In this document: positions 2,222 to 22,414 of the stretch, piece by piece
How positions within the stretch are numbered: the stretch's first letter is position 1
How the letters are laid out: the number at the start of each line of letters is the position of its first letter
IMG/VR virus record: IMGVR_UViG_3300045988_129873
Location: 1-28,944 of that record
DNA: 28,944 nucleotides
DNA from: a virus
Taxonomy: Duplodnaviria > Heunggongvirae > Uroviricota > Caudoviricetes
Strand: one strand, 5' to 3'
The notes under the pieces: model-generated
Seen by the model: only the letters and a program-made list of their open reading frames with translations
Databases searched by the model: none
Told to the model about the DNA's origin: nothing
Translations under genes and position numbers: made by a program

Positions 2222-2392
2222 ATGAATGAGCCTCGTTGTATTGCTCAGTTACTGCGTAACGAAAGCCCCAGGGCGATTGACTTCACCATCACCCACGGTA
2301 AGGGGCGTAAGGGAATCATTATCCGCACCAAAAAACAGAGTCCGTTAAAAAAGGCTCTGACCTTTCTGAAAAGCCGGAGGGTATGGAAATGA
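2222..2392 (+). CDS. Hypothetical early protein (P2 orf78-like position)
   Basis: ATG at 2222 is preceded by AGGAGA at 5-nt spacing. The ORF-track version starts at an upstream GTG. Overlaps the B start by 4 nt (translational coupling). Confidence 0.6.
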   Translation: MNEPRCIAQLLRNESPRAIDFTITHGKGRKGIIIRTKKQSPLKKALTFLKSRRVWK

Positions 2393-2889
2393 CAGTGATG
2401 ACGCTCAATCTCGTTGAAAAACAGCCAGCAGCTATGCGCCGGATAATTGGCAAGCATCTTGCCGTCCCTCGCTGGCAGGATACATGTGATTATTTTAATC
2501 AGATGATGGAGCGCGAACGGCTAACGGTTTGCTTTCATGCACAGTTAAAACAGCGTCACGCAACGATGCGTTTTGAAGAAATGAACGACGTCGAACGTGA
2601 ACGGCTGGTTTGTGCAATTGATGAATTGCGTGGGGCATTCTCAAAACGCCGTCAGGTCGGTGCAAGTGAGTATGCATATATTAGTTTTTTAACAGTCAGC
2701 CAGCGACGTACTTTATTTATGCACGCACGACTGACAGAAAAAGAATTCAACCAGCCGTACTGGCGAATTAATGAAGAATCATGTTACTGGCGTGATGCTT
2801 TATTCCGTGCATTACGTGAATTATTCAGTCTGTTTGAGTATGCACCGACAATTCTGACATCGGTAAAACCAGAGCAATATCTGCATTAA
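2389..2889 (+). CDS. B: Replication protein B (P2 gpB-like, 166 aa)
   Basis: ATG at 2389 has GGAGG 8 nt upstream. 166 aa, same as P2 B. Position between cox and A. Confidence 0.8.
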   Translation: MTVMTLNLVEKQPAAMRRIIGKHLAVPRWQDTCDYFNQMMERERLTVCFHAQLKQRHATMRFEEMNDVERERLVCAIDELRGAFSKRRQVGASEYAYISFLTVSQRRTLFMHARLTEKEFNQPYWRINEESCYWRDALFRALRELFSLFEYAPTILTSVKPEQYLH

Positions 2890-2951
2890 GTAATTAACCA
2901 GAGTTTTTAACGCACTTAATTGTGCGGGGCTTCTTTTGCCTGGAGAAAGTC

Positions 2952-3176
2952 ATGCATACAGTTTCTGAAAATCAGTGCGGTAAATACGCATTACTGCTGC
3001 AACAGGCCAGAACCGAAGCACAGGCCGATGCAGCGACGCGCTTTTCTTCTCATCTTGACGCCATGATTCGCCACATCACAAAGGCGGAATTATCCCGCGT
3101 GGAGATAGTCGAGCTGCTCAGTCAGGAGTCGGAAAAATTTCACAATATCGGATTGTCTCGCGGGGAGGTGCTTTGA
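2952..3176 (+). CDS. Hypothetical early protein (P2 orf80 position)
   Basis: ATG at 2952 with a GGAG SD. Small early-operon ORF. Confidence 0.55.
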
Positions 3177-3974: not shown

Positions 3975-6240
3975 AGCCTCCGGGCGTTTTGTCCCTCCGT
4001 CAGCATTTGCTGCAGGCACCGGTAAGGCGTTTACCGGTGCTTATGCATGGAACGCGCCACGCGAGGCTGTCGGGCGCGAAAGACCCCTTACACGTGACGA
4101 GATGCGTCAGGTGCAAGGTGTTTTATCCACGATTAACCGCCTGCCTTACTTTTTGCGCTCGCTGTTTACGTCACGCTATGACTACATCCGGCGCAATAAA
4201 AGCCCGGTGCACGGGTTTTATTTCCTCACATCCACTTTTCAGCGTCGTTTATGGCCGCGCATTGAGCGTGTGAATCAGCGCCATGAAATGAACACCGACG
4301 CGTCGATGCTGTTTCTGGCTGAGCGTGACCACTATGCGCGCCTGCCGGGAATGAATGACAAGGAGCTGAAAAAGTTTGCCGCCCGTATCTCATCGCAGCT
4401 TTTCATGATGTATGAGGAACTCAGCGATGCCTGGGTGGATGCGCATGGCGAAAAAGAATCGCTGTTTACGGATGAGGCGCAGGCTCACCTCTATGGTCAT
4501 GTTGCTGGCGCTGCACGTGCTTTCAATATTTCCCCTCTCTACTGGAAAAAATACCGTAAAGGACAGATGACCACGAGGCAGGCATATTCTGCCATTGCCC
4601 GTCTGTTTAACGATGAGTGGTGGATTAGTCAGCTTAAAGGCCAGCGTATGCGCTGGCATGAGGCGTTACTGATTGCTGTCGGGGAGGTCAATAAAGACCG
4701 TTCTCCTTATGCCAGTAAACATGCCATTCGTGATGTGCGTGCACGCCGCCAGGCAAATCTGGAATTTCTTAAATCGTGTGATCTCGAAAACAGGGAAACA
4801 GGCGAGCGCATCGACCTTATCAGTAAGGTGATGGGCAGTATTTCTAATCCTGAAATTCGCCGGATGGAACTGATGAACACCATTGCCGGTATTGAGCGTT
4901 ACGCCGCCGCAGAAGGTGATGTGGGGATGTTTATCACGCTGACCGCGCCGTCAAAGTATCACCCGACACGTCAGGTTGGAAAAGGCGAAAGTAAAACCGT
5001 CCAGCTAAATCACGGCTGGAACGATGAGGCATTTAATCCAAAGGATGCGCAGCGTTATCTCTGCCGTATCTGGAGCCTGATGCGCACGGCATTCAAGGAT
5101 AATGATTTACAGGTCTACGGTTTGCGAGTCGTCGAGCCACACCACGACGGAACGCCGCACTGGCATATGATGCTTTTTTGTAATCCACGCCAGCGTAACC
5201 AGATTATCGAAATCATGCGTCGCTACGCGCTCAAAGAGGATGGCGACGAAAGAGGAGCTGCGCGAAACCGTTTTCAGGCAAAACATCTTAATCGGGGCGG
5301 TGCTGCGGGGTATATCGCGAAATACATCTCAAAAAATATCGACGGCTATGCACTGGATGGGCAGCTCGATAACGATAGCGGCAGACCGCTGAAAGATACT
5401 GCCGCGGCTGTTACCGCATGGGCGTCAACGTGGCGCATTCCGCAATTTAAAACGGTTGGCCTGCCGACAATGGGGGCTTACCGTGAACTACGCAAATTGC
5501 CTCGCGGCGTCAGCATTGCTGATGAGTTTGACGAGCGCGTCGAGGCTGCACGCGCCGCCGCAGACAGTGGTGATTTTGCGCTGTATATCAGCGCGCAGGG
5601 TGGGGCAAATGTCCCGCGCGATTGTCAGACTGTCAGGGTCGCCCGTAGTCCGTCGGATGAAGTTAACGAGTACGAGGAAGAAGTCGAGAGAGTGGTCGGC
5701 ATTTACGCGCCGCATCTCGGCGCGCGTCATATTCATATCACCAGAACGACGGACTGGCGCATTGTTCCGAAAGTGCCGGTCGTTGAGCCTTTGACTTTAA
5801 AAAGCGGCATCGCCGCGCCTCGGAGTCCTGTCAATAACTGTGGAAAGCTCACCGGTGGTGATACTTCGTTACCGGCTCCCACACCTTCTGAGCACGCCGC
5901 AGCAGTGCTTAATCTGGTTGATGACGGTGTTATCGAATGGAATGAGCCGGAGGTCGTGAAGGCGCTCAGGGGCGCATTAAAACACGGGCTGGGAACGCCA
6001 AATCGTCAGCAAAGAAACGGAAGCCCGTTAAAACCGCATGAAATTGCACCATCGGCCAGACTGACCCGGCCGGAACGATTGCAAATCACCCGTATCCGCG
6101 TTGACCTTGCTCAGAACGGTATCAGGCCGCAGCGATGGGAGCTTGAGGCGCTGGCGCGTGGGGCAACCGTAAATTATGACGGGAAAAAATTCACGTATCC
6201 GGTTGCTGATGAGTGGCCGGGGTTCTCGTTACCCATTTGA
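3964..6240 (+). CDS. A: Replication initiation endonuclease A (rolling-circle HUH nickase, P2 gpA-like)
   Basis: Trimmed to the ATG at 3964 (MAVKASGRF...); the track start is a TTG. Contains the HUH-type motif HWHMMLF and the tyrosine-pair region YIAKYISK characteristic of rolling-circle initiators. Confidence 0.92.
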   Translation: MAVKASGRFVPPSAFAAGTGKAFTGAYAWNAPREAVGRERPLTRDEMRQVQGVLSTINRLPYFLRSLFTSRYDYIRRNKSPVHGFYFLTSTFQRRLWPRIERVNQRHEMNTDASMLFLAERDHYARLPGMNDKELKKFAARISSQLFMMYEELSDAWVDAHGEKESLFTDEAQAHLYGHVAGAARAFNISPLYWKKYRKGQMTTRQAYSAIARLFNDEWWISQLKGQRMRWHEALLIAVGEVNKDRSPYASKHAIRDVRARRQANLEFLKSCDLENRETGERIDLISKVMGSISNPEIRRMELMNTIAGIERYAAAEGDVGMFITLTAPSKYHPTRQVGKGESKTVQLNHGWNDEAFNPKDAQRYLCRIWSLMRTAFKDNDLQVYGLRVVEPHHDGTPHWHMMLFCNPRQRNQIIEIMRRYALKEDGDERGAARNRFQAKHLNRGGAAGYIAKYISKNIDGYALDGQLDNDSGRPLKDTAAAVTAWASTWRIPQFKTVGLPTMGAYRELRKLPRGVSIADEFDERVEAARAAADSGDFALYISAQGGANVPRDCQTVRVARSPSDEVNEYEEEVERVVGIYAPHLGARHIHITRTTDWRIVPKVPVVEPLTLKSGIAAPRSPVNNCGKLTGGDTSLPAPTPSEHAAAVLNLVDDGVIEWNEPEVVKALRGALKHGLGTPNRQQRNGSPLKPHEIAPSARLTRPERLQITRIRVDLAQNGIRPQRWELEALARGATVNYDGKKFTYPVADEWPGFSLPI

Positions 6241-6500
6241 GTAAAAACACAACGTGATTTGATATGGCATTGAATGGCTTATGCGGAGCAGTTATGGGGC
6301 AGCAGAAGGTCAATAGCATGCTGAATTAGAAGGCTAAATGCTATTGAGTGACTAGCATGTCGGTAAGGACGGCCGTTTGATCCGGGTCATAAAAGGCCAT
6401 CCATTTAGTCTAATAAAATCATTGCGGGTAACCTTATGTCGACGCATAATTCATCTTGAGCGAAGTCTTGTCAGTCTTTCATCGTATTGATGATGGGCGC

Positions 6501-6531
6501 AAAAAAACCACCCTGGCAGGTGGTTTTTTTG
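6501..6531. terminator. Bidirectional rho-independent terminator (A-tract, 7-bp stem aaccacc/ggtggtt, 6-nt loop, T-tract)
   Basis: aaaaaaaccaccctggcaggtggttttttt read directly. Lies immediately 3' of the minus-strand small ORF and about 260 bp 3' of gene A. Confidence 0.7.
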
Positions 6532-6542
6532 TTTGAAGCATA

Positions 6543-6656
6543 TTAAAGCATAATGCTGACATTGATATTACTGACGTTTACTGACAAACCACTCGGACTA
6601 CCGTTTGGATAGCCAAAGAGGGCCAGAACGAGCATGCAGTAATAGCATTTCTTCAT
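6543..6656 (-). CDS. Candidate small hydrophobic peptide, 37 aa (MKKCYYCMLVLALFGYPNGSPSGLSVNVSNINVSIML)
   Basis: ATG at 6656 is preceded by a perfect AGGAGG SD at 4-nt spacing. The terminator at 6501..6531 follows directly after the stop. The longer 88-aa track ORF has no SD at its upstream starts. Confidence 0.4.
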   Translation of the reverse strand: MKKCYYCMLVLALFGYPNGSPSGLSVNVSNINVSIML

Positions 6657-6801
6657 ATTGCCTCCTGTAAGTAGAGGGCAACTTCCACCGGTATATGCGC
6701 TTCTTAGGTGGAATGACTTTTGAGCGAAGTCTTGCCCTGAAATAATGCTCTGTTTAAACGCAAAGTGATTTGGCATATCACCGAACAGAGAGCCGGAAAA
6801 A

Positions 6802-6849
6802 CACAACATATAGTATGTCGTTGTTTCTAGACATACATTCTATGTTGTG
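6802..6849. promoter_or_regulatory. Imperfect palindrome / hairpin (cacaacatatagtatgtc ... gacatacattctatgttgtg)
   Basis: 9-bp perfect outer arms plus inner 6-7 bp pairing around a 10-nt loop, upstream (minus-strand sense) of the small ORF. Confidence 0.4.
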
Positions 6850-7134
6850 TAACAAGGGCTTTGCATTAAACATGTTTGAGATTTTATTGATGTAGCTCAA
6901 AGTAAAAAACAGAGACTACGGTTGATAAGGTCTTGAAAGCAATGTAAATTTTTTAAAGTTGCCAATTGCTTAAAAATGTACAGTTGCGGTATGGCGTACT
7001 TAAAAAGCTATGCATGCAACAAGTGAATGTTTTTGCATGCGTTGGGGATGTCCGTTCAGGCTGCGTGCGGTCAGGACTGGTGCGGATCCATAGTATCTAT
7101 GCAACTGCATTAAAACCGCCCCGTGAAGCGGGCG

Positions 7135-7153
7135 GGCGAGGCGGGGAAAGCAC
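7135..7153. other. cos: cos site (19-nt cohesive end sequence ggcgaggcggggaaagcac)
   Basis: Matches the P2 cohesive-end sequence as I recall it. It is a GC-rich island in an otherwise AT-rich intergenic region, located between A and Q as expected for a prophage. Confidence 0.7.
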
Positions 7154-7297
7154 TGCGCGCAGCCCGTCAAGAATAAAAAACTCTCTTGCAGGTAGAAAAC
7201 ATTCTGTTAACATTTGTCTGGATGAAGTTTAAGTTAGAAATTTATGTTAATGAACTGATTGATACTTATGTTTTGTCAATAATTTAGGAATGTTAAG

Positions 7298-8434
7298 ATG
7301 ACAAGCTATGTTACATGGGCAAATAAAGGTGGAATAGGTAAATCAACATTATCTTTCCAATTGGCGTTAAAATACGCGAGATTAAACACGAATAAAAAAG
7401 TAATCATAATAGATATGAGCCCTCAGTGTGATGTCTCTAGAATGTTATTGGGGGGAGGGCATTTTAACGGTGAGCAAAAGATCTTGGATAGAATGACCTC
7501 TAATCCAAGGTTGACAATTTACCGGTATCTTGAGGCCTGTGTTAATGATGTTCCTTCTGGGAGGGGATGGCCTGATTCATTATCATACTTAATTGAACCT
7601 AATTCTTTTCGAGACGAAAACGCAGAAAAATTGCCTGATAATATTAGTATGGTCTGTGGAGATTTCGACTTAGAGAGGGTTACTCATAGTTTAGATAATT
7701 TGCCACAACCTCAACCAAGAGGCGGGCGTGTTCCGTCGGGTGCTCATTACTCAGCATATTTATTGCCACGCACTTTTCTACGGAAAATGGTGGAGGACTT
7801 TGAGCGCGAATACAGGGATGTGACAATTTTTATTGATACAGATCCATATTATTCGGTAGTAACAACACATCTGGGGCTTCTGGCTGCAGACAGGTTGATT
7901 TCGGCATACTCTCCTTCATCTCAAGCAAGCCAGTATGCAGTATATCGTAGCTTAGAGTTTCTATACGATCCTAATTATGGACTGGTGCAAGAGGTTAATA
8001 CACAGAGAGCAATATATGGTACCCCTTGGTTTGATAGTTTAAATAATATAATTACAACACCGAATATATCTGTTGCAAATCTTTATATGGTAGTAAGTAA
8101 CATGAATACGCCTCAGGCTGGAAGAGGACAACCTCCATACAGCCAACCCCAAAAACTACATAGACAATCGCAACAAGAAGTTATATCTAGAATTAATGAC
8201 ACATTAAGTAGTTTGGGGATCGCGCATGATTATGTTCATGACTATTTATGGGATCTCAAGAGATTAGGTTTGATTTGTGATTATAATGGTTTTGATTTAG
8301 CAACAATTCAATTAGGGGAAAATTATGCGGAACCAAGTGATGATGGTAATTATTATGTAAATACTACAGGTGGAACACCGATCCAATTATCATCCTATAA
8401 TGCTAGGATCGAAACTGTTACATCAAAACTATAA
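7298..8434 (+). CDS. AT-rich cargo gene: ParA/MinD-like P-loop ATPase (deviant Walker A) with uncharacterised C-terminal half, 378 aa
   Basis: Deviant Walker A KGGIGKST at residues 10-17 (7325..7348), an IIIDMSPQ motif like ParA DxDPQ, and a Walker-B-like TIFIDTDP near residue 175. AGGAA SD 7 nt upstream. Much lower GC than the backbone. Hairpin terminator directly after the stop. No ParB or parS partner seen. Confidence 0.8.
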   Translation: MTSYVTWANKGGIGKSTLSFQLALKYARLNTNKKVIIIDMSPQCDVSRMLLGGGHFNGEQKILDRMTSNPRLTIYRYLEACVNDVPSGRGWPDSLSYLIEPNSFRDENAEKLPDNISMVCGDFDLERVTHSLDNLPQPQPRGGRVPSGAHYSAYLLPRTFLRKMVEDFEREYRDVTIFIDTDPYYSVVTTHLGLLAADRLISAYSPSSQASQYAVYRSLEFLYDPNYGLVQEVNTQRAIYGTPWFDSLNNIITTPNISVANLYMVVSNMNTPQAGRGQPPYSQPQKLHRQSQQEVISRINDTLSSLGIAHDYVHDYLWDLKRLGLICDYNGFDLATIQLGENYAEPSDDGNYYVNTTGGTPIQLSSYNARIETVTSKL

Positions 8435-8506: not shown

Positions 8507-9526
8507 CTATAGGGTGTATTGTCTGAATTTTATTACATTCTGACCGAGCCAGCCGTTTATTTCCCGAATCCTGTCCTGTAACGGGATAAGCTCATTGCGG
8601 ACAAAGACCTTTGCCACTTTCTCAATATCACCCAGCGACCCGACGTTCTCCGGCTTGCCACCCATCAACTGAAAGGGGATGCGGTGTGCGTCCAGCAGGT
8701 CAGCGGCGCTGGCTTTTTTGATATTAAAAAAATCATCCTTCGTTGCCACTTCACTGAGCGGGATAATTTTAATGCCGTCGGCTTTCCCTTGTGGGGCATA
8801 GAGGAACAGGTTTTTAAAGTTGTTGCGGCCTTTCGACTTCACCATGTTTTCGCGGAGCATTTCGATATCGTTGCGATCCTGCACGGCATCGGTGACGTAC
8901 ATGATGTATCCGGCATGTGCGCCGTTTTCGTAATACTTGCGGCGGAACAGCGTGGCCGACTCATTCAGCCAGGCAGAATTAAGGGCGCTCAGATATTCCG
9001 GCAGGCCGTACAGCTCCTGATTGATATCCGGCTCCAGCAGGTGAAACACGGAGCCGGGCGTGAAGGCTGTCGGCTCGTTGAAGGACGGCACCCACCAGTA
9101 AACATCCTCCTCCACGCCACGGCGGGTATATTTTGCCGGTGAGGTTTCCAGTCTGATGACCTTACCGGTGGTGCTGTAACGCTTTTCCAGAAACGCATTA
9201 CCGAACACCAGAAAATCCAGCACAAAGCGGCTGAAATCCTGCTGGGAAAGCCACGGATGCGGGATAAATGTCGAGGCCAGAATATTGCGTTTGACGTAAA
9301 TCGGTGAGCTGTGATGCACGGCAGCACGCAGGCTTTTTGCCAGACCGGTAAAGCTGACCGGTGGCTCATACCATCTGCCGTTACTGATGCACTCGACGTA
9401 ATCCAGAATGTCACGGCGGTCGAGTACCGGCACCGGCTCACCAAAGGTGAATGCCTCCATTTTCGGGGCGCTGGCGGTCATTTTTTTTGCCGCAGGTTGC
9501 GGTGTTTTCCCTTTTTTCTTGCTCAT
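8507..9526 (-). CDS. Q: Portal protein Q (P2 gpQ-like)
   Basis: 339 aa. Start ATG overlaps the P stop (ATGA). Order Q-P divergent from O-N-M-L as in P2. Confidence 0.92.
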   Translation of the reverse strand: MSKKKGKTPQPAAKKMTASAPKMEAFTFGEPVPVLDRRDILDYVECISNGRWYEPPVSFTGLAKSLRAAVHHSSPIYVKRNILASTFIPHPWLSQQDFSRFVLDFLVFGNAFLEKRYSTTGKVIRLETSPAKYTRRGVEEDVYWWVPSFNEPTAFTPGSVFHLLEPDINQELYGLPEYLSALNSAWLNESATLFRRKYYENGAHAGYIMYVTDAVQDRNDIEMLRENMVKSKGRNNFKNLFLYAPQGKADGIKIIPLSEVATKDDFFNIKKASAADLLDAHRIPFQLMGGKPENVGSLGDIEKVAKVFVRNELIPLQDRIREINGWLGQNVIKFRQYTL

Positions 9527-20164: not shown

Positions 20165-22414
20165 ATGAGCACAAAATTCAGAACCGTTATCACCACTGCC
20201 GGTGCAGCAAAGCTGGCAGCGGCAACCGCGCCGGGAGGGCGGAAGGTCAACATTACCACGATGGCCGTCGGGGATGGCGGTGGTAAATTGCCTGTCCCGG
20301 ATGCCGGACAGACCGGGCTTATCCACGAAGTCTGGCGACATGCGCTGAACAAAATCAGCCAGGACAAACGAAACAGTAATTATATTATCGCAGAGCTGGT
20401 TATTCCGCCGGAGGTGGGCGGTTTCTGGATGCGTGAGCTTGGCCTGTACGATGATGCGGGAACGTTAATTGCCGTGGCGAACATGGCCGAAAGTTATAAG
20501 CCTGCCCTTGCCGAAGGCTCAGGGCGTTCGCAGACCTGCCGCATGGTCATCATCGTCAGCAGTGTGGCCTCAGTGGCGCTGACCATTGACACCACAACGG
20601 TGATGGCAACGCAGGATTACGTTGATGACAAAATTGCAGAGCACGAACAGTCACGACGTCACCCGGACGCCTCGCTGACCGCAAAAGGTTTTACTCAGCT
20701 AAGCAGCGCGACCAACAGCACGTCTGAAACACTGGCCGCAACGCCGAAAGCAGTAAAGACCGCCTATGACCTTGCTAACGGGAAATATACTGCGCAGGAT
20801 GCCACCACAGCGCGAAAAGGTCTTGTCCAGCTCAGTAGTGCCACCAACAGCACGTCTGAAACGCTCGCCGCAACACCAAAAGCGGTTAAGGCAGCGTATG
20901 ACCTTGCTAACGGGAAATACACTGCACAGGACGCCACCACAGCGCGAAAAGGTCTTGTCCAGCTCAGTAGCGTCACCAACAGCGATTCTGAAACGCTTGC
21001 GGCAACGCCAAAGGCGGTAAAGGCCGCGTATGACCTTGCTAACGGGAAATACACTGCACAGGATGCCACTACAGCGCGAAAAGGTCTTGTCCAGCTCAGT
21101 AGCGCCACCAACAGTGATTCTGAAACGCTGGCCGCAACATCAAAAGCGGTGAAGTCTGCCTATGACAATGCTGAAAAACGTCTTCAGAAAGATCAGAACG
21201 GTGCGGATATTCCTGATAAAGGACGCTTCCTGAGTAACATTAATGTTTACAGCAAAGGTGAAGTGGATAAGAAAAAGGGAATGCGAAAGTATTCGTTTGC
21301 AGCCCCTGCAAATGTCGTTGCCGGGAAGTGGTATCCCGTTATCTTTCGCCGTGCTGCCAGCCTTTCAGGAGAAATGGCATCCCGCGTCGTTATTTCAACT
21401 GGTTGTTATAACGGCGATTATGTAATGAATAACTGCGAGTTTAATGGCATGGTTATGCCCGGAGGCTGGACCGATCGTGGTTCATATGCGGCAGGTTATT
21501 TCTGGACGTATCAGACTAATGAGCGTTCAATCCATTCCATTGTTACAAGCCTGAAAGATGATGATGTATGTAGTGTTTTTTATGTTGAAGCCAGAGCTTT
21601 CCCAGTACAAATTCTTGCAGAGGAAGGGCTAACGGTTATTGTTCCGACAGAGGATTATGTCGTCGGTCAGACGACATATAAGTGGGGGGCAACTAATCCC
21701 GCTACAGAAAGCACGAACGTACAGGCTATTCTGGATTTTAAAAATGGACGTGGTTATTACTGTTCACATCCATTTATTTCCAGCCTTTCAGGAAATGCTG
21801 CAACAGCAACGAAGTTAGCGAACGCAAGAAATATTAATGGTGTCAGATTTGATGGCTCTGCCGATATAAATATTAATACACTGGTATCCAGAAACCGTGT
21901 TACTGCATTAGGTGGGAGCGTAAAGGGGACACCAGGTATTCAGATGTATGAGGCATACAACAATGGCTACCCAACAGCCTATGGTAATGTGCTTCATCTC
22001 ACTGGCGTAACCGCTGTAGGAGAGGGTGAGTTACTTATTGGCTGGAGTGGAACCAGCGGTGCTCATGCTCCGGCATATATTCGCTCCCGACGAGATACCA
22101 CAGATGCTAACTGGTCTGGATGGGCGCAACTATATACAACTGCTCATAAACCCTCAGCGGGAGATGTTGGTGCATACACCAAAGCTGAGTCAGATTCACG
22201 TTATGTGAGAGACATGCGGTTGGGCGGTGCATCTACATATAAACCAGCAAATAATGGTACTACATGGACGCATCAGGCTCCGTCAGGTTGCGTATATACC
22301 GGCATTATTGTTCAGGATACCGGCTCAAACTCTGCCGATAACATTGGTGGCGTATATTACAGACCGGTGCAGAAATACATTAACGGGACATGGTATAACG
22401 TGGCGCAGGTATAA
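20165..22414 (+). CDS. H: Tail fibre protein H (749 aa) with internal tandem repeats and a lower-GC C-terminal receptor-binding part
   Basis: Conserved N-terminal baseplate-attachment region. Fibre repeat motifs (SSATNSTSETLAATPKAVK). Position before tail-fibre assembly gene G. Confidence 0.9.
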   Translation: MSTKFRTVITTAGAAKLAAATAPGGRKVNITTMAVGDGGGKLPVPDAGQTGLIHEVWRHALNKISQDKRNSNYIIAELVIPPEVGGFWMRELGLYDDAGTLIAVANMAESYKPALAEGSGRSQTCRMVIIVSSVASVALTIDTTTVMATQDYVDDKIAEHEQSRRHPDASLTAKGFTQLSSATNSTSETLAATPKAVKTAYDLANGKYTAQDATTARKGLVQLSSATNSTSETLAATPKAVKAAYDLANGKYTAQDATTARKGLVQLSSVTNSDSETLAATPKAVKAAYDLANGKYTAQDATTARKGLVQLSSATNSDSETLAATSKAVKSAYDNAEKRLQKDQNGADIPDKGRFLSNINVYSKGEVDKKKGMRKYSFAAPANVVAGKWYPVIFRRAASLSGEMASRVVISTGCYNGDYVMNNCEFNGMVMPGGWTDRGSYAAGYFWTYQTNERSIHSIVTSLKDDDVCSVFYVEARAFPVQILAEEGLTVIVPTEDYVVGQTTYKWGATNPATESTNVQAILDFKNGRGYYCSHPFISSLSGNAATATKLANARNINGVRFDGSADININTLVSRNRVTALGGSVKGTPGIQMYEAYNNGYPTAYGNVLHLTGVTAVGEGELLIGWSGTSGAHAPAYIRSRRDTTDANWSGWAQLYTTAHKPSAGDVGAYTKAESDSRYVRDMRLGGASTYKPANNGTTWTHQAPSGCVYTGIIVQDTGSNSADNIGGVYYRPVQKYINGTWYNVAQV
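20684..21181 (+). repeat. Tandem 132-bp (44-aa) in-frame repeat array, about 3.75 copies, inside gene H
   Basis: aaaggtcttgtccagctcagtag recurs at 20816, 20948 and 21080 (period 132). Protein units KG[FL][TV]QLSS[AV]TNS[TD]SETLAATPKAVK[TA]AYDLANGKYTAQDATTAR. Confidence 0.9.

What the first reader, a model, noticed from the sequence alone, without database searches (positions are those of the whole stretch)
6455..6734. Mini-module between gene A and cos: 37-aa hydrophobic peptide ORF with perfect SD and terminator, bracketed by 15-bp direct repeats
The exact 15-mer ttgagcgaagtcttg occurs twice in direct orientation, about 265 bp apart. Between the copies lie a minus-strand ORF (MKKCYYCMLVLALFGYPNGSPSGLSVNVSNINVSIML) with AGGAGG 4 nt before the ATG and a strong bidirectional rho-independent terminator right after its stop. 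The architecture resembles small membrane-peptide toxins (type I toxin-like) or a moron inserted by site-specific or microhomology-mediated recombination. It occupies the position where P2 has orf91/tin/old, which are absent here.
Basis: seen in the sequence. Interest (0 to 1): 0.55.

Follow-up and report, generated by a model that had tools for sequence, protein, structure and literature searches.

The report
Unannotated small-peptide and antisense-RNA module
The 15-bp "direct repeats" are not insertion scars. They are the pairing sites of a conserved, unannotated small-peptide gene and a convergent small RNA (a type I toxin-antitoxin-like cassette), and this cassette also occurs on hundreds of Klebsiella plasmids and in three kinds of prophage.

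Summary

They belong to one autonomous cassette of about 555 bp (window ~6411-6965). The same cassette occurs in about 150 of 5426 complete E. coli genomes (P2-like prophages), 436 PLSDB plasmids (397 Klebsiella), an N15-like linear plasmid-prophage and filamentous prophages. It is almost never annotated.

- **The ORF codes for protein.** It is 37-39 codons in all 14 lineages, indels are in frame only, third-position changes are in excess, and pN/pS is 0.18-0.50.
- **Copy 1** is the 5' end of a predicted ~75-nt plus-strand sRNA. This sRNA has a conserved TTGCGR-17/18-CATAAT promoter, a covarying hairpin and the shared terminator.
- **Copy 2** lies in the single-stranded 5'UTR of the peptide mRNA, 64-80 nt upstream of a hairpin-sequestered SD.
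- **The two copies covary.** Four pairs changed on both sides, and every internal difference is G·U-compatible only for this strand assignment.

The architecture matches par/Fst of pAD1. The regulation and peptide design resemble tisB/istR-1 and timP/timR. No Rfam, Pfam, NCBIfam or TimP membership was found.

The mRNA promoter is homologous to the FNR-dependent nrdDG promoter.

Transcripts, toxicity and FNR control are inferred, not shown.

The parts
6411..6965 (.). Whole cassette: the block conserved between P2-like, N15-like and filamentous prophages and plasmids
   Evidence: Alignments A2 and A4 and the extra lineages. Flanks differ completely between contexts. Inside P2-like prophages, 6240-6410 is much more diverged than 6456-6960.
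6422..6450 (+). Predicted sRNA promoter: -35 TTGCGG (6422-6427), 17-nt spacer, -10 CATAAT (6445-6450)
   Evidence: Both hexamers are kept in all 14 lineages. The spacer sequence diverges but its length stays at 17-18 nt. The consensus scan flags TTGCGA-17-CATAAT at the homologous place in E24377A. The start site is inferred.
6457..6531 (+). Predicted ~75-nt antisense sRNA (candidate antitoxin): 5' seed, middle hairpin (~6474-6498), terminator
   Evidence: Fold -29.5 kcal/mol, z = -3.7. In the alignment folds the middle hairpin has 6 pairs with compensatory changes and many G·U pairs that would be A·C on the other strand. No transcript data.
6456..6472 (+). Repeat copy 1 = seed at the 5' end of the sRNA (the 15-mer plus 2 nt that pair through U·G and C-G)
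6501..6530 (.). Shared bidirectional intrinsic terminator (A7 CCACC CTGGCA GGTGG T7). The 3' ends of the two RNAs are complementary here
   Evidence: The stem is invariant and the loop varies in only 1 of 14 lineages, although the cassettes are otherwise only 72-75% identical.
6543..6656 (-). 37-codon peptide gene (candidate toxin), MKKCYYCMLVLALFGYPNGSPSGLSVNVSNINVSIML, stop included
   Evidence: Kept at 37-39 codons in all lineages with in-frame indels only. Third-position excess and pN/pS 0.18-0.50. The upstream in-frame extension is broken by frameshifting indels in homologues.
6657..6682 (-). SD (AGGAGG 6661-6666) held in a hairpin with an upstream CCCU anti-SD
   Evidence: Single-sequence fold. 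Consensus folds keep the anti-SD/SD pairs in 9-10 of 10 sequences.
6683..6713 (-). Middle 5'UTR hairpin (UCCACC...GGUGGA) with conserved loop GAAGCGCA.AUA
   Evidence: compensatory A-U/G-C/U-A changes.
6720..6736 (-). Repeat copy 2 = sRNA-binding site in the single-stranded part of the 5'UTR (mRNA 5'-GGCAAGACUUCGCUCAA-3'), 64-80 nt upstream of the AUG
   Evidence: Best predicted duplex in every lineage.
6748..6790 (-). 5' hairpin of the mRNA leader (CUCUGUU...AACAGAG around GGUGAU...AUCACU)
   Evidence: Five of the 7 outer pairs show changes on both sides in at least one lineage. One inner pair is G·U in 9 of 10 sequences, which is strand specific.
6837..6900 (-). Predicted peptide-mRNA promoter, homologous to PnrdDG: FNR-like box TTGAGctacATCAA (6900-6887), degenerate second box TTAATgcaaAGCCC (6869-6856), -10 TAGAAT (6842-6837), start ~6830
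   Evidence: Alignment with Salmonella and E. coli nrdD upstream DNA (A10). FNR and NrdR control of nrdDG is taken from PMC2892513 and PMC12176259. Function here is inferred by homology only.

Best explanation
The region is a self-contained type I toxin-antitoxin-like cassette.

**Peptide mRNA.** A minus-strand mRNA of about 330 nt starts near 6830. Its promoter is homologous to the FNR-activated nrdDG promoter. It carries a structured leader of about 175 nt, encodes a 37-aa peptide, and ends at the bidirectional terminator. The peptide has a signal-anchor-like hydrophobic N-terminus, a GYPxGSxSG turn, and an alternating polar/hydrophobic C-terminus.

**sRNA.** A convergent plus-strand sRNA of about 75 nt has its own sigma-70 promoter and ends at the same terminator. 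Its single-stranded 5' end is repeat copy 1. This end pairs over 14-18 bp with repeat copy 2 in the open stretch of the leader, between two hairpins and 64-80 nt upstream of an AUG whose SD is locked in a hairpin.

**Proposed action.** Pairing is proposed to block ribosome loading (standby-site occlusion) and/or to trigger duplex cleavage. That would keep the peptide off while the sRNA is made. The complementary terminator hairpins give a second contact, as in par of pAD1.

**What is shown.** Conservation of every element across 14 lineages. Protein-level selection on the ORF. Covariation of the two repeat copies and of the RNA hairpins, with strand-specific G·U evidence.

**What is inferred.** The transcripts and their ends, repression by the sRNA, toxicity or membrane action of the peptide, anaerobic (FNR) induction, and the biological role (stabilising the element, or defence).
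For: 1. **Spread.** The cassette is kept as a unit in unrelated replicons:
   - P2-like prophages, 150 of 5426 complete E. coli genomes.
   - 436 plasmids.
   - An N15-like prophage beside a protelomerase gene.
   - Filamentous prophages beside Secretin/Zot genes.
2. **Coding.** The ORF is 37-39 codons everywhere. Indels in the ORF are in frame, while leader indels are not multiples of 3. Codon-position differences are, for example, [4,9,19]. pN/pS is 0.18-0.50.
3. **Pairing.** The 14 core pairs form in 10 of 10 distinct sequences.
   - Four pairs changed on both sides: three in the Salmonella plasmid lineage and one in L174. Only 5 of 500 shuffles reach this.
   - Sliding the register drops pairing from 92% to 28-43%.
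   - All four internal differences between the copies (T/C three times, G/A once) give G·U only if copy 1 is read on + and copy 2 on -.
4. **sRNA.** Promoter hexamers are kept with a diverged spacer of fixed length. The middle hairpin covaries.
5. **mRNA leader.** Nine pairs have compensatory changes and the SD is sequestered.
6. **Architecture.** It equals the published par architecture: convergent promoters, a shared bidirectional terminator, direct repeats giving complementarity, and an SD-sequestering stem (PMC7472228).
7. **Promoter.** Homology to PnrdDG.
Against: - No expression data of any kind. Both transcripts, their ends and the repression are predictions.
- The hydrophobic stretch is only about 13 residues, short for a classic type I toxin helix. 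The C-terminus is polar and beta-like rather than charged. Toxicity is therefore uncertain, and the peptide might be a benign small membrane or exported protein under sRNA control.
- Three of the four compensatory duplex changes come from a single lineage, so there are few independent events. Gene conversion between the copies cannot be formally excluded.
- The -35 regions of both promoters are weak matches in the window itself. The window's TTGCGG failed the consensus scan.
- A single FNR-box match is not above chance within the window. The FNR argument rests on homology.
- In the P2 context, read-through from gene A could also supply copy 1 as a 3'UTR.
Confidence: 0.72

Rival explanations
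1. Moron inserted by site-specific or microhomology-mediated recombination. The two 15-mers are duplicated target or attachment sequences that bracket the inserted DNA.
For: The unit is autonomous and occurs in many different mobile elements, often next to variable cargo or IS elements. An exact 15-bp direct repeat at 264 bp is the kind of signal such events leave.
Against: - The conserved, transferred block extends about 45 bp beyond copy 1 and about 230 bp beyond copy 2 in every context.
- No relative with a single 'empty-site' copy was seen among related loci.
- The two copies changed together at 3-4 positions in diverged lineages, and asymmetric changes are wobble-compatible. Scars under no selection would not behave this way.
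Confidence: 0.04
2. A genuine small-protein gene with a dedicated sRNA regulator, but not a toxin-antitoxin pair. The peptide would be a non-toxic small membrane or exported protein, perhaps with an anaerobic function, carried by mobile elements. The sRNA would merely tune its expression.
For: - The peptide looks like a short signal-anchor plus a polar tail, not a typical charged-tail type I toxin.
- The promoter is homologous to an FNR/NrdR-controlled housekeeping promoter.
- Deleting the analogous TimR did not cause a growth defect in Salmonella (PMC7667032).
Against: - Tight multilayer repression (sequestered SD plus a dedicated antisense RNA plus complementary terminators) is the hallmark of toxic peptides.
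- Occurrence is almost exclusively on plasmids and prophages. No species-representative genome contains it apart from one weak hit (40% identity, E 9e-6) in a candidate division KSB1 metagenome-assembled genome that I took for spurious. This fits an addiction or defence gene better than a physiological one.
Confidence: 0.18
3. The repeats are two binding sites for a protein (a replication, packaging or regulatory factor of the phage), and the small ORF is incidental.
For: The location is between the replication gene A and cos. Repeated short sites are common in ori and cos regions.
Against: - The cassette works in replicons that share no replication or packaging proteins.
- The ORF is under purifying selection.
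- The copies differ only by changes that are neutral for RNA pairing in one strand orientation, which a DNA-binding protein would not distinguish.
- No other copy exists in the window.
Confidence: 0.03
4. Leader-peptide or attenuator element, or a chance ORF in front of a terminator.
For: Weak Rfam hits to Phe_leader and other terminator-containing families.
Against: - All those hits are below the gathering score and align only to the terminator hairpin.
- Nothing lies downstream of the terminator on the minus strand to regulate.
- The ORF is conserved at the protein level.
Confidence: 0.02

Closest known systems
par (Fst / RNA I - RNA II) of Enterococcus faecalis plasmid pAD1, and the SprA1/SprA1as arrangement
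   Same: - Convergent promoters.
- Toxin mRNA and sRNA share one bidirectional intrinsic terminator, so their 3' ends are complementary.
- DNA direct repeats transcribed in opposite directions give a second region of complementarity in the 5' part of the mRNA.
- An intramolecular stem sequesters the SD.
- Small peptide of 33-37 aa, carried on mobile elements (PMC7472228; PMC8594479).
   Different: - There is no sequence relation. The Fst hallmarks (PXXXG motif, charged C-terminal tail) are absent.
- There is one repeat pair instead of DRa and DRb.
- The pairing site lies 64-80 nt upstream of the start codon rather than over the initiation region.
- The hosts are Enterobacteriaceae. The T1TAdb paper lists this 3'-side arrangement only for Gram-positive families.
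tisB/istR-1, zorO/orzO, shoB/ohsC (enterobacterial type I systems with short trans-like pairing in the 5'UTR)
   Same: - Short (about 15-20 nt) complementarity between the sRNA 5' end and a single-stranded leader region far upstream of a structurally closed RBS.
- A long structured leader.
- A small hydrophobic peptide.
   Different: - In those systems the sRNA gene is divergent, 5' of the toxin gene, and shares no terminator (PMC8594479).
- There is no sequence or Rfam match: OrzO-P scores 21 bits against a gathering score of 60, on the terminator only.
- tisB is LexA-controlled, whereas here the promoter is nrdDG-like.
timP/timR (RyfA/RyfB) of Salmonella and E. coli
   Same: A peptide of about 38-41 aa with an N-terminal signal-sequence-like segment (MK..C.CI.L) and a polar Asn/Ser-rich tail. 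A long 5'UTR is bound by the 5' end of a dedicated sRNA that ends in an intrinsic terminator (PMC7667032).
   Different: - timR is divergent and upstream.
- No RyfA Rfam match even at E<=10.
- No NCBIfam TimP hit.
- Profile-profile probability is 9%, over 11 N-terminal residues only.
- timPR is chromosomal core DNA, whereas this cassette rides on plasmids and prophages.
nrdDG promoter of E. coli / Salmonella
   Same: About 90 bp of colinear similarity, covering both FNR boxes, the -10 and, in some lineages, the NrdR boxes.
   Different: It drives a 37-aa peptide gene instead of the anaerobic ribonucleotide reductase. In the window itself the downstream FNR box and NrdR box 1 are degenerate.

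Membership tests
Type I toxin-antitoxin system (general class) | Small (<60 aa) hydrophobic peptide gene that is really coding | tested here: met
   37-39 codons in 14 lineages, pN/pS 0.18-0.50, third-position excess, in-frame indels only. N-terminal mean hydropathy 2.0-2.9.
Type I toxin-antitoxin system (general class) | Adjacent antisense sRNA gene with complementarity to the toxin mRNA | tested here: met
   Predicted only. Conserved promoter, covarying hairpin and terminator. A 14-18 bp duplex with covariation. Transcript not observed.
Type I toxin-antitoxin system (general class) | Peptide is toxic when expressed, and the sRNA represses its synthesis | not testable with these tools
   Needs expression experiments.
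par / Fst-RNAII family | Convergent transcription, shared bidirectional terminator, direct repeats giving 5' complementarity, SD-sequestering stem | tested here: met
   compared with PMC7472228.
par / Fst-RNAII family | Fst/Ldr-type toxin (hydrophobic helix with PXXXG(C) motif and a charged C-terminal tail) | tested here: not met
   The peptide has no such motif or charged tail. No Pfam or NCBIfam hit at E<=10.
TimP/TimR (RyfA, Rfam RF00126) | Sequence and structure match to RyfA RNA / TimP protein | tested here: not met
   No Rfam hit. NCBIfam none. hhalign probability 9%.
Known enterobacterial antitoxin sRNA families in Rfam (Sok, Sib, Rdl, IstR, OhsC, OrzO, SymR, AgrB, ptaRNA1...) | Covariance-model match at the gathering score | tested here: not met
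   0 matches at gathering in the whole window. Sub-threshold hits align only to the terminator.
FNR-activated nrdDG-type promoter | Colinear homology with the two FNR boxes and the -10 of PnrdDG | tested here: met
   A10. 86.8% identity over 68 nt to E. coli nrdD upstream DNA. The upstream box TTGAGctacATCAA has 1 mismatch to TTGAT-N4-ATCAA.
FNR-activated nrdDG-type promoter | Anaerobic, FNR-dependent transcription | not testable with these tools
   Needs reporter fusions in wild-type and fnr-mutant strains, with and without oxygen.
Insertion bracketed by target-site duplication / att repeats | Repeats lie exactly at the boundaries of the transferred DNA, and empty sites carry one copy | tested here: not met
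   The conserved block extends well beyond both copies. No single-copy relatives among related loci.

The most novel reading that the evidence does not exclude
A previously unrecognised family of type I toxin-antitoxin cassettes in Enterobacteriaceae that uses the par/Fst-type design: a convergent sRNA, a shared terminator and direct-repeat pairing. This design has so far been described only in Gram-positive bacteria. Its toxin promoter was captured from the oxygen-sensing nrdDG promoter. Plasmids and prophages, including the P2 defence hotspot, would then carry an addiction or abortive-infection peptide that is armed specifically under anaerobic gut conditions.
Probability: 0.3. Interest if true: 0.72.

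Novelty: new variant of a known kind. Interest (0 to 1): 0.6.

Why it matters
If confirmed, this adds a new family to the short list of enterobacterial type I toxin-antitoxin systems. The family is invisible to current annotation. There is no Pfam, NCBIfam or Rfam model, and the DNA is left unannotated in nearly all RefSeq records examined.

The cassette sits on hundreds of clinically important Klebsiella IncF plasmids, in about 3% of complete E. coli genomes, and in linear-plasmid and filamentous prophages.

It would also show that the par-type regulatory design is not confined to Gram-positive bacteria. And it would link a plasmid or prophage peptide to oxygen sensing through an nrdDG-derived promoter. 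That link gives a directly testable hypothesis about element maintenance or phage defence in the anaerobic gut.

For genome scanning, it shows that short direct repeats flanking a small ORF and a bidirectional terminator can signal RNA-RNA pairing rather than recombination.

Tried and rejected
- **Rfam.** Gathering threshold on the whole window, and E<=10 on 6300-7100. Only sub-threshold hits driven by the terminator.
- **Pfam and NCBIfam** on five peptide variants at E<=10: nothing.
- **Word-indexed protein search** with the peptide: one 37-aa cluster only. The full HMMER search of 1.84 billion representatives gave only 6 clusters, none named.
- **TimP membership:** rejected.
- **Genome-contig scan** with peptide patterns: only one weak hit (40% identity, E 9e-6) in a candidate division KSB1 metagenome-assembled genome, which I took for spurious. 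The cassette is therefore absent from species-representative genomes.
- **Metagenome and IMG/VR DNA-pattern scans** added copies but little new diversity. The 14-mer scan was mostly chance hits. The terminator pattern also hit unrelated ColE1-type RNAI.
- **Literature.** Full-text searches for the seed sequence, the peptide motif, and type I TA with P2, Klebsiella or plasmid terms found no description.
- **Alternative minus-strand promoter** CTGACA-17-AATTAT, overlapping copy 1: considered and set aside, because its -35 is degraded (CTAGCA) in most P2 lineages.
- **Alternative Klebsiella-only promoter** TAAACA-16-TATTAT: not conserved.
- **The 88-aa extended ORF:** rejected, because its upstream part is frameshifted in homologues.
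- **RNAduplex energies** were inflated by long internal loops. I used them only to show that the best duplex is always anchored at the repeat.
- **Structure prediction** of the 37-aa peptide was not attempted. A single short sequence would be uninformative, and the alignment rows from other loci may not be submitted.
Full report
**Observation**

The window is a P2-like prophage of E. coli. Gene A (replication endonuclease) ends at 6240, and cos lies near 7137-7155.

The 15-mer TTGAGCGAAGTCTTG occurs exactly twice, at 6456-6470 and 6720-6734, on the same strand. There is no third copy even at two mismatches.

Between the copies lie three features:
- the minus-strand ORF 6543..6656 (37 aa);
- AGGAGG, 4 nt before its ATG;
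- a hairpin A7-CCACC-CTGGCA-GGTGG-T7 at 6501-6530, which can terminate transcription in both directions.

An exact 15-mer direct repeat within 1 kb is expected 0.04 times per shuffled window, and 6 of 200 shuffles had at least one. On its own the repeat is only moderately improbable, so the case rests on comparison with other sequences.

**What is conserved**

Eight P2-like homologues at 85-100% identity show a striking pattern. DNA just after gene A (6240-6455) is diverged. From copy 1 onwards, to about 6960, it is nearly invariant. The conserved unit is therefore much larger than the ORF.

The same unit, at 72-76% identity, then turned up in unrelated replicons:
- An IMG/VR contig (L092) between a Toprim-containing replication protein and a protelomerase. 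This is an N15-like linear plasmid-prophage.
- 436 PLSDB plasmids, 397 of them Klebsiella and mostly conjugative IncFIB/IncFII, in varied neighbourhoods. Nothing was annotated under the match in nearly all records listed.
- A more diverged Salmonella IncFIB plasmid lineage.
- Two lineages next to Secretin, Zot and DUF2523 genes. These are filamentous prophages.

In complete E. coli genomes it occurs in 158 of 5426, always chromosomal, and 150 of these carry at least 80% of it.

The shared block runs from about 6411 to about 6965 in window coordinates. Both repeat copies are well inside it, so they are not insertion scars. Because plasmids have no cos, they are not packaging signals either.

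**The ORF is a gene**

All 14 lineages keep an ORF of 37 codons at the same place (38 or 39 in two of them), with a GGAG-type SD.

The conserved pattern is M-[KND]-[KR]-x3-C-[IM]-L-V-L-[AT]-L-F-G-Y-P-x-G-S-[PQ]-S-G-[LW]-S-x-x-V-S-[NH]-I-x-V-x-I-x-L.

- Indels inside the ORF are multiples of three.
- Indels in the leader are not, and they destroy the 88-aa upstream extension.
- Substitutions concentrate at third positions, for example [4,9,19].
- pN/pS is 0.18-0.50 across lineage pairs.

The peptide has a hydrophobic N-terminal stretch of about 13 residues after MKK/MNR, then a Gly/Pro/Ser turn, then a tail of alternating hydrophobic and Asn/Ser residues.

It matches no Pfam or NCBIfam model at E<=10. 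It is almost absent from protein databases: one cluster in the word-indexed search, and six clusters at 50% identity among 1.84 billion representatives, none named.

**The repeats are an RNA-RNA pairing site**

A direct repeat in DNA becomes complementarity if the two copies are transcribed from opposite strands.

*The sRNA.* Upstream of copy 1 on the plus strand lies TTGCGR-17/18 nt-CATAAT.
- The hexamers are kept in every lineage. The spacer sequence diverges but keeps its length.
- The scan flags this promoter in E24377A.
- Transcription would start at copy 1 and stop at the terminator, giving an RNA of about 75 nt: a 5' seed, a middle hairpin and the terminator.
- The middle hairpin has a different sequence in each lineage but is always a hairpin. 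Six pairs have compensatory changes, and many U·G pairs would be C·A on the other strand. This places the RNA on the plus strand.

*The mRNA leader.* Copy 2 lies on the minus-strand mRNA in an unpaired stretch between two conserved hairpins, 64-80 nt upstream of the AUG. The SD is paired with an upstream CCCU.
- The leader hairpins show nine compensatory pairs.
- They also contain a G·U pair that is specific to the minus strand.

*The duplex.* I joined copy 1 to the reverse complement of copy 2 for the 10 distinct versions.
- The 14 core pairs form in all 10.
- Four pairs changed on both sides. Three are in the Salmonella plasmid, where both copies read TGAGCAAAGCCTTACC. One is in L174, where both copies have T where Klebsiella has C.
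- Only 5 of 500 column shuffles reach this.
- Shifting the register drops pairing from 92% to 28-43%.

Where the two copies differ internally, it is T in copy 1 with C in copy 2 (window, L092 twice, P2 clades) or G with A (L175). These are U·G or G·U pairs for the proposed strands, and mismatches for the opposite assignment.

In every lineage the best predicted sRNA-mRNA duplex is anchored at the repeat. In the window the duplex is 17 bp: sRNA 6456-6472 with mRNA 6736-6720.

The terminator stem is invariant, and its loop varies in only one lineage. This contrasts with 25% divergence elsewhere. It fits a second RNA-RNA contact between the complementary 3' hairpins, but that function is inference.

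**Promoter of the peptide mRNA**

The upstream third of the cassette also matches DNA outside the cassette. That DNA proved to be the chromosomal nrdD (anaerobic ribonucleotide reductase) upstream region of Salmonella and E. coli.

The alignment is colinear over about 90 bp. It covers:
- an upstream FNR-type box, TTGAGctacATCAA in the window at 6900-6887;
- a second box, TTGATgcaaATCAC in most lineages but degenerate in the window;
- the -10, TAGAAT/TAAAAT at 6842-6837;
- in L092 and L174, sequences like the two NrdR boxes of the E. coli nrdDG probe (PMC12176259).

nrdDG is activated anaerobically by FNR and repressed by NrdR (PMC2892513). I therefore predict anaerobic, FNR-dependent transcription of the peptide mRNA from about 6830. 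This is inference by homology. One FNR-like match is not above chance in the window by itself.

**Mechanism proposed**

- The sRNA is made from its own sigma-70-type promoter.
- The peptide mRNA is made from an nrdDG-type promoter. It is translationally closed by its SD hairpin.
- The sRNA seed occupies the open leader segment that ribosomes would need as a loading or standby site, or it creates an RNase III substrate.
- If the sRNA is lost, or the mRNA is induced strongly, the peptide is made and inserts into the inner membrane.

Shown: conservation, coding selection and covariation. Inferred: everything about expression, repression, toxicity and role.

**Comparison with known systems**

- *par of pAD1.* The architecture is that of par: convergent promoters, a shared bidirectional terminator, direct repeats read in opposite directions, and an SD-sequestering stem (PMC7472228). 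The T1TAdb paper lists this arrangement, a 3'-side sRNA with the interaction outside the overlap, only for the Gram-positive Fst/RNAII and SprA1 families. Enterobacterial non-overlapping systems place the sRNA 5' of the toxin gene (PMC8594479). The peptide lacks the Fst hallmarks, so this is not a member of that family.
- *tisB/istR-1 and zorO/orzO.* Pairing far upstream of a closed RBS resembles these systems.
- *TimP.* The peptide design resembles TimP, whose E. coli sequence is MKIRCFCIVLIVSGALLTEVNNNRSLSGDNLLVVNNLQSSK. Membership was tested and not met. There is no RyfA match and no NCBIfam TimP hit. The profile-profile probability is 9%, over 11 residues.
- *Literature.* Full-text searches for the seed, the peptide motif and relevant keywords found no description. 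The library does not cover subscription journals, so prior description cannot be fully excluded.

**Verdict**

The 'bracketed by recombination repeats' reading is rejected.

The feature is best described as a new, unannotated family of type I toxin-antitoxin-like cassettes. It has a par-type layout and an nrdDG-type promoter, and it is spread on plasmids and three kinds of prophage.

- Confidence in the peptide-plus-antisense-sRNA model: about 0.7.
- Confidence that the peptide is a true toxin: lower, about 0.5.

The main rival is a non-toxic small membrane protein under the same sRNA control.

Noticed in passing
window 7298-8434 (+): A lone ParA/MinD-like P-loop ATPase gene (Pfam AAA_31, CbiA; no PADLOC hit) lies between cos and the portal gene Q (8507-9526, minus strand). 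This is cargo on the far side of cos. Other P2-like prophages with the same cassette carry different cargo at this hotspot: ImmA/IrrE plus a hypothetical protein, an AAA ATPase, or a large hypothetical protein.
   Followed up: partly
window 6837-6925; L170 2501-2626; L173 1501-1568: The promoter region of the peptide mRNA is homologous to the chromosomal nrdDG promoter of E. coli and Salmonella (FNR boxes, -10, remnants of NrdR boxes). A mobile cassette appears to have captured, or to share ancestry with, a housekeeping oxygen-responsive promoter.
   Followed up: partly
window 6501-6536; L150 5920-5946: The cassette's terminator hairpin and its tail (AAAAAAACCACCCTGGCAGGTGGTTTTTTTGTTTG) are nearly identical to the 3' stem-loop of RNAI in some ColE1-type small plasmids. 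This explains the weak Rfam RNAI hits. Whether it reflects common origin or convergence is unknown.
   Followed up: no
window 20696-21166: A tandem repeat with a 132-bp period, 3.6 copies and 88% matches. The period is in frame (44 aa), so it is presumably a repeat inside the tail-fibre gene.
   Followed up: no
L174 3001-3114; L175 1009-1125; L176 68-184: Two further cassette lineages lie beside Secretin, Zot and DUF2523 genes, that is, in filamentous (inovirus-type) prophages. The cassette has therefore moved among at least four kinds of mobile element.
   Followed up: partly
and one search hit tables (record_from 2277): Many complete E. coli assemblies have the match at coordinates 2277-3037. 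This means the chromosome sequence was rotated to start at the P2-like gene A ('replication endonuclease'). It is probably an artefact of start-fixing software that picks a phage replication gene instead of dnaA.
   Followed up: no
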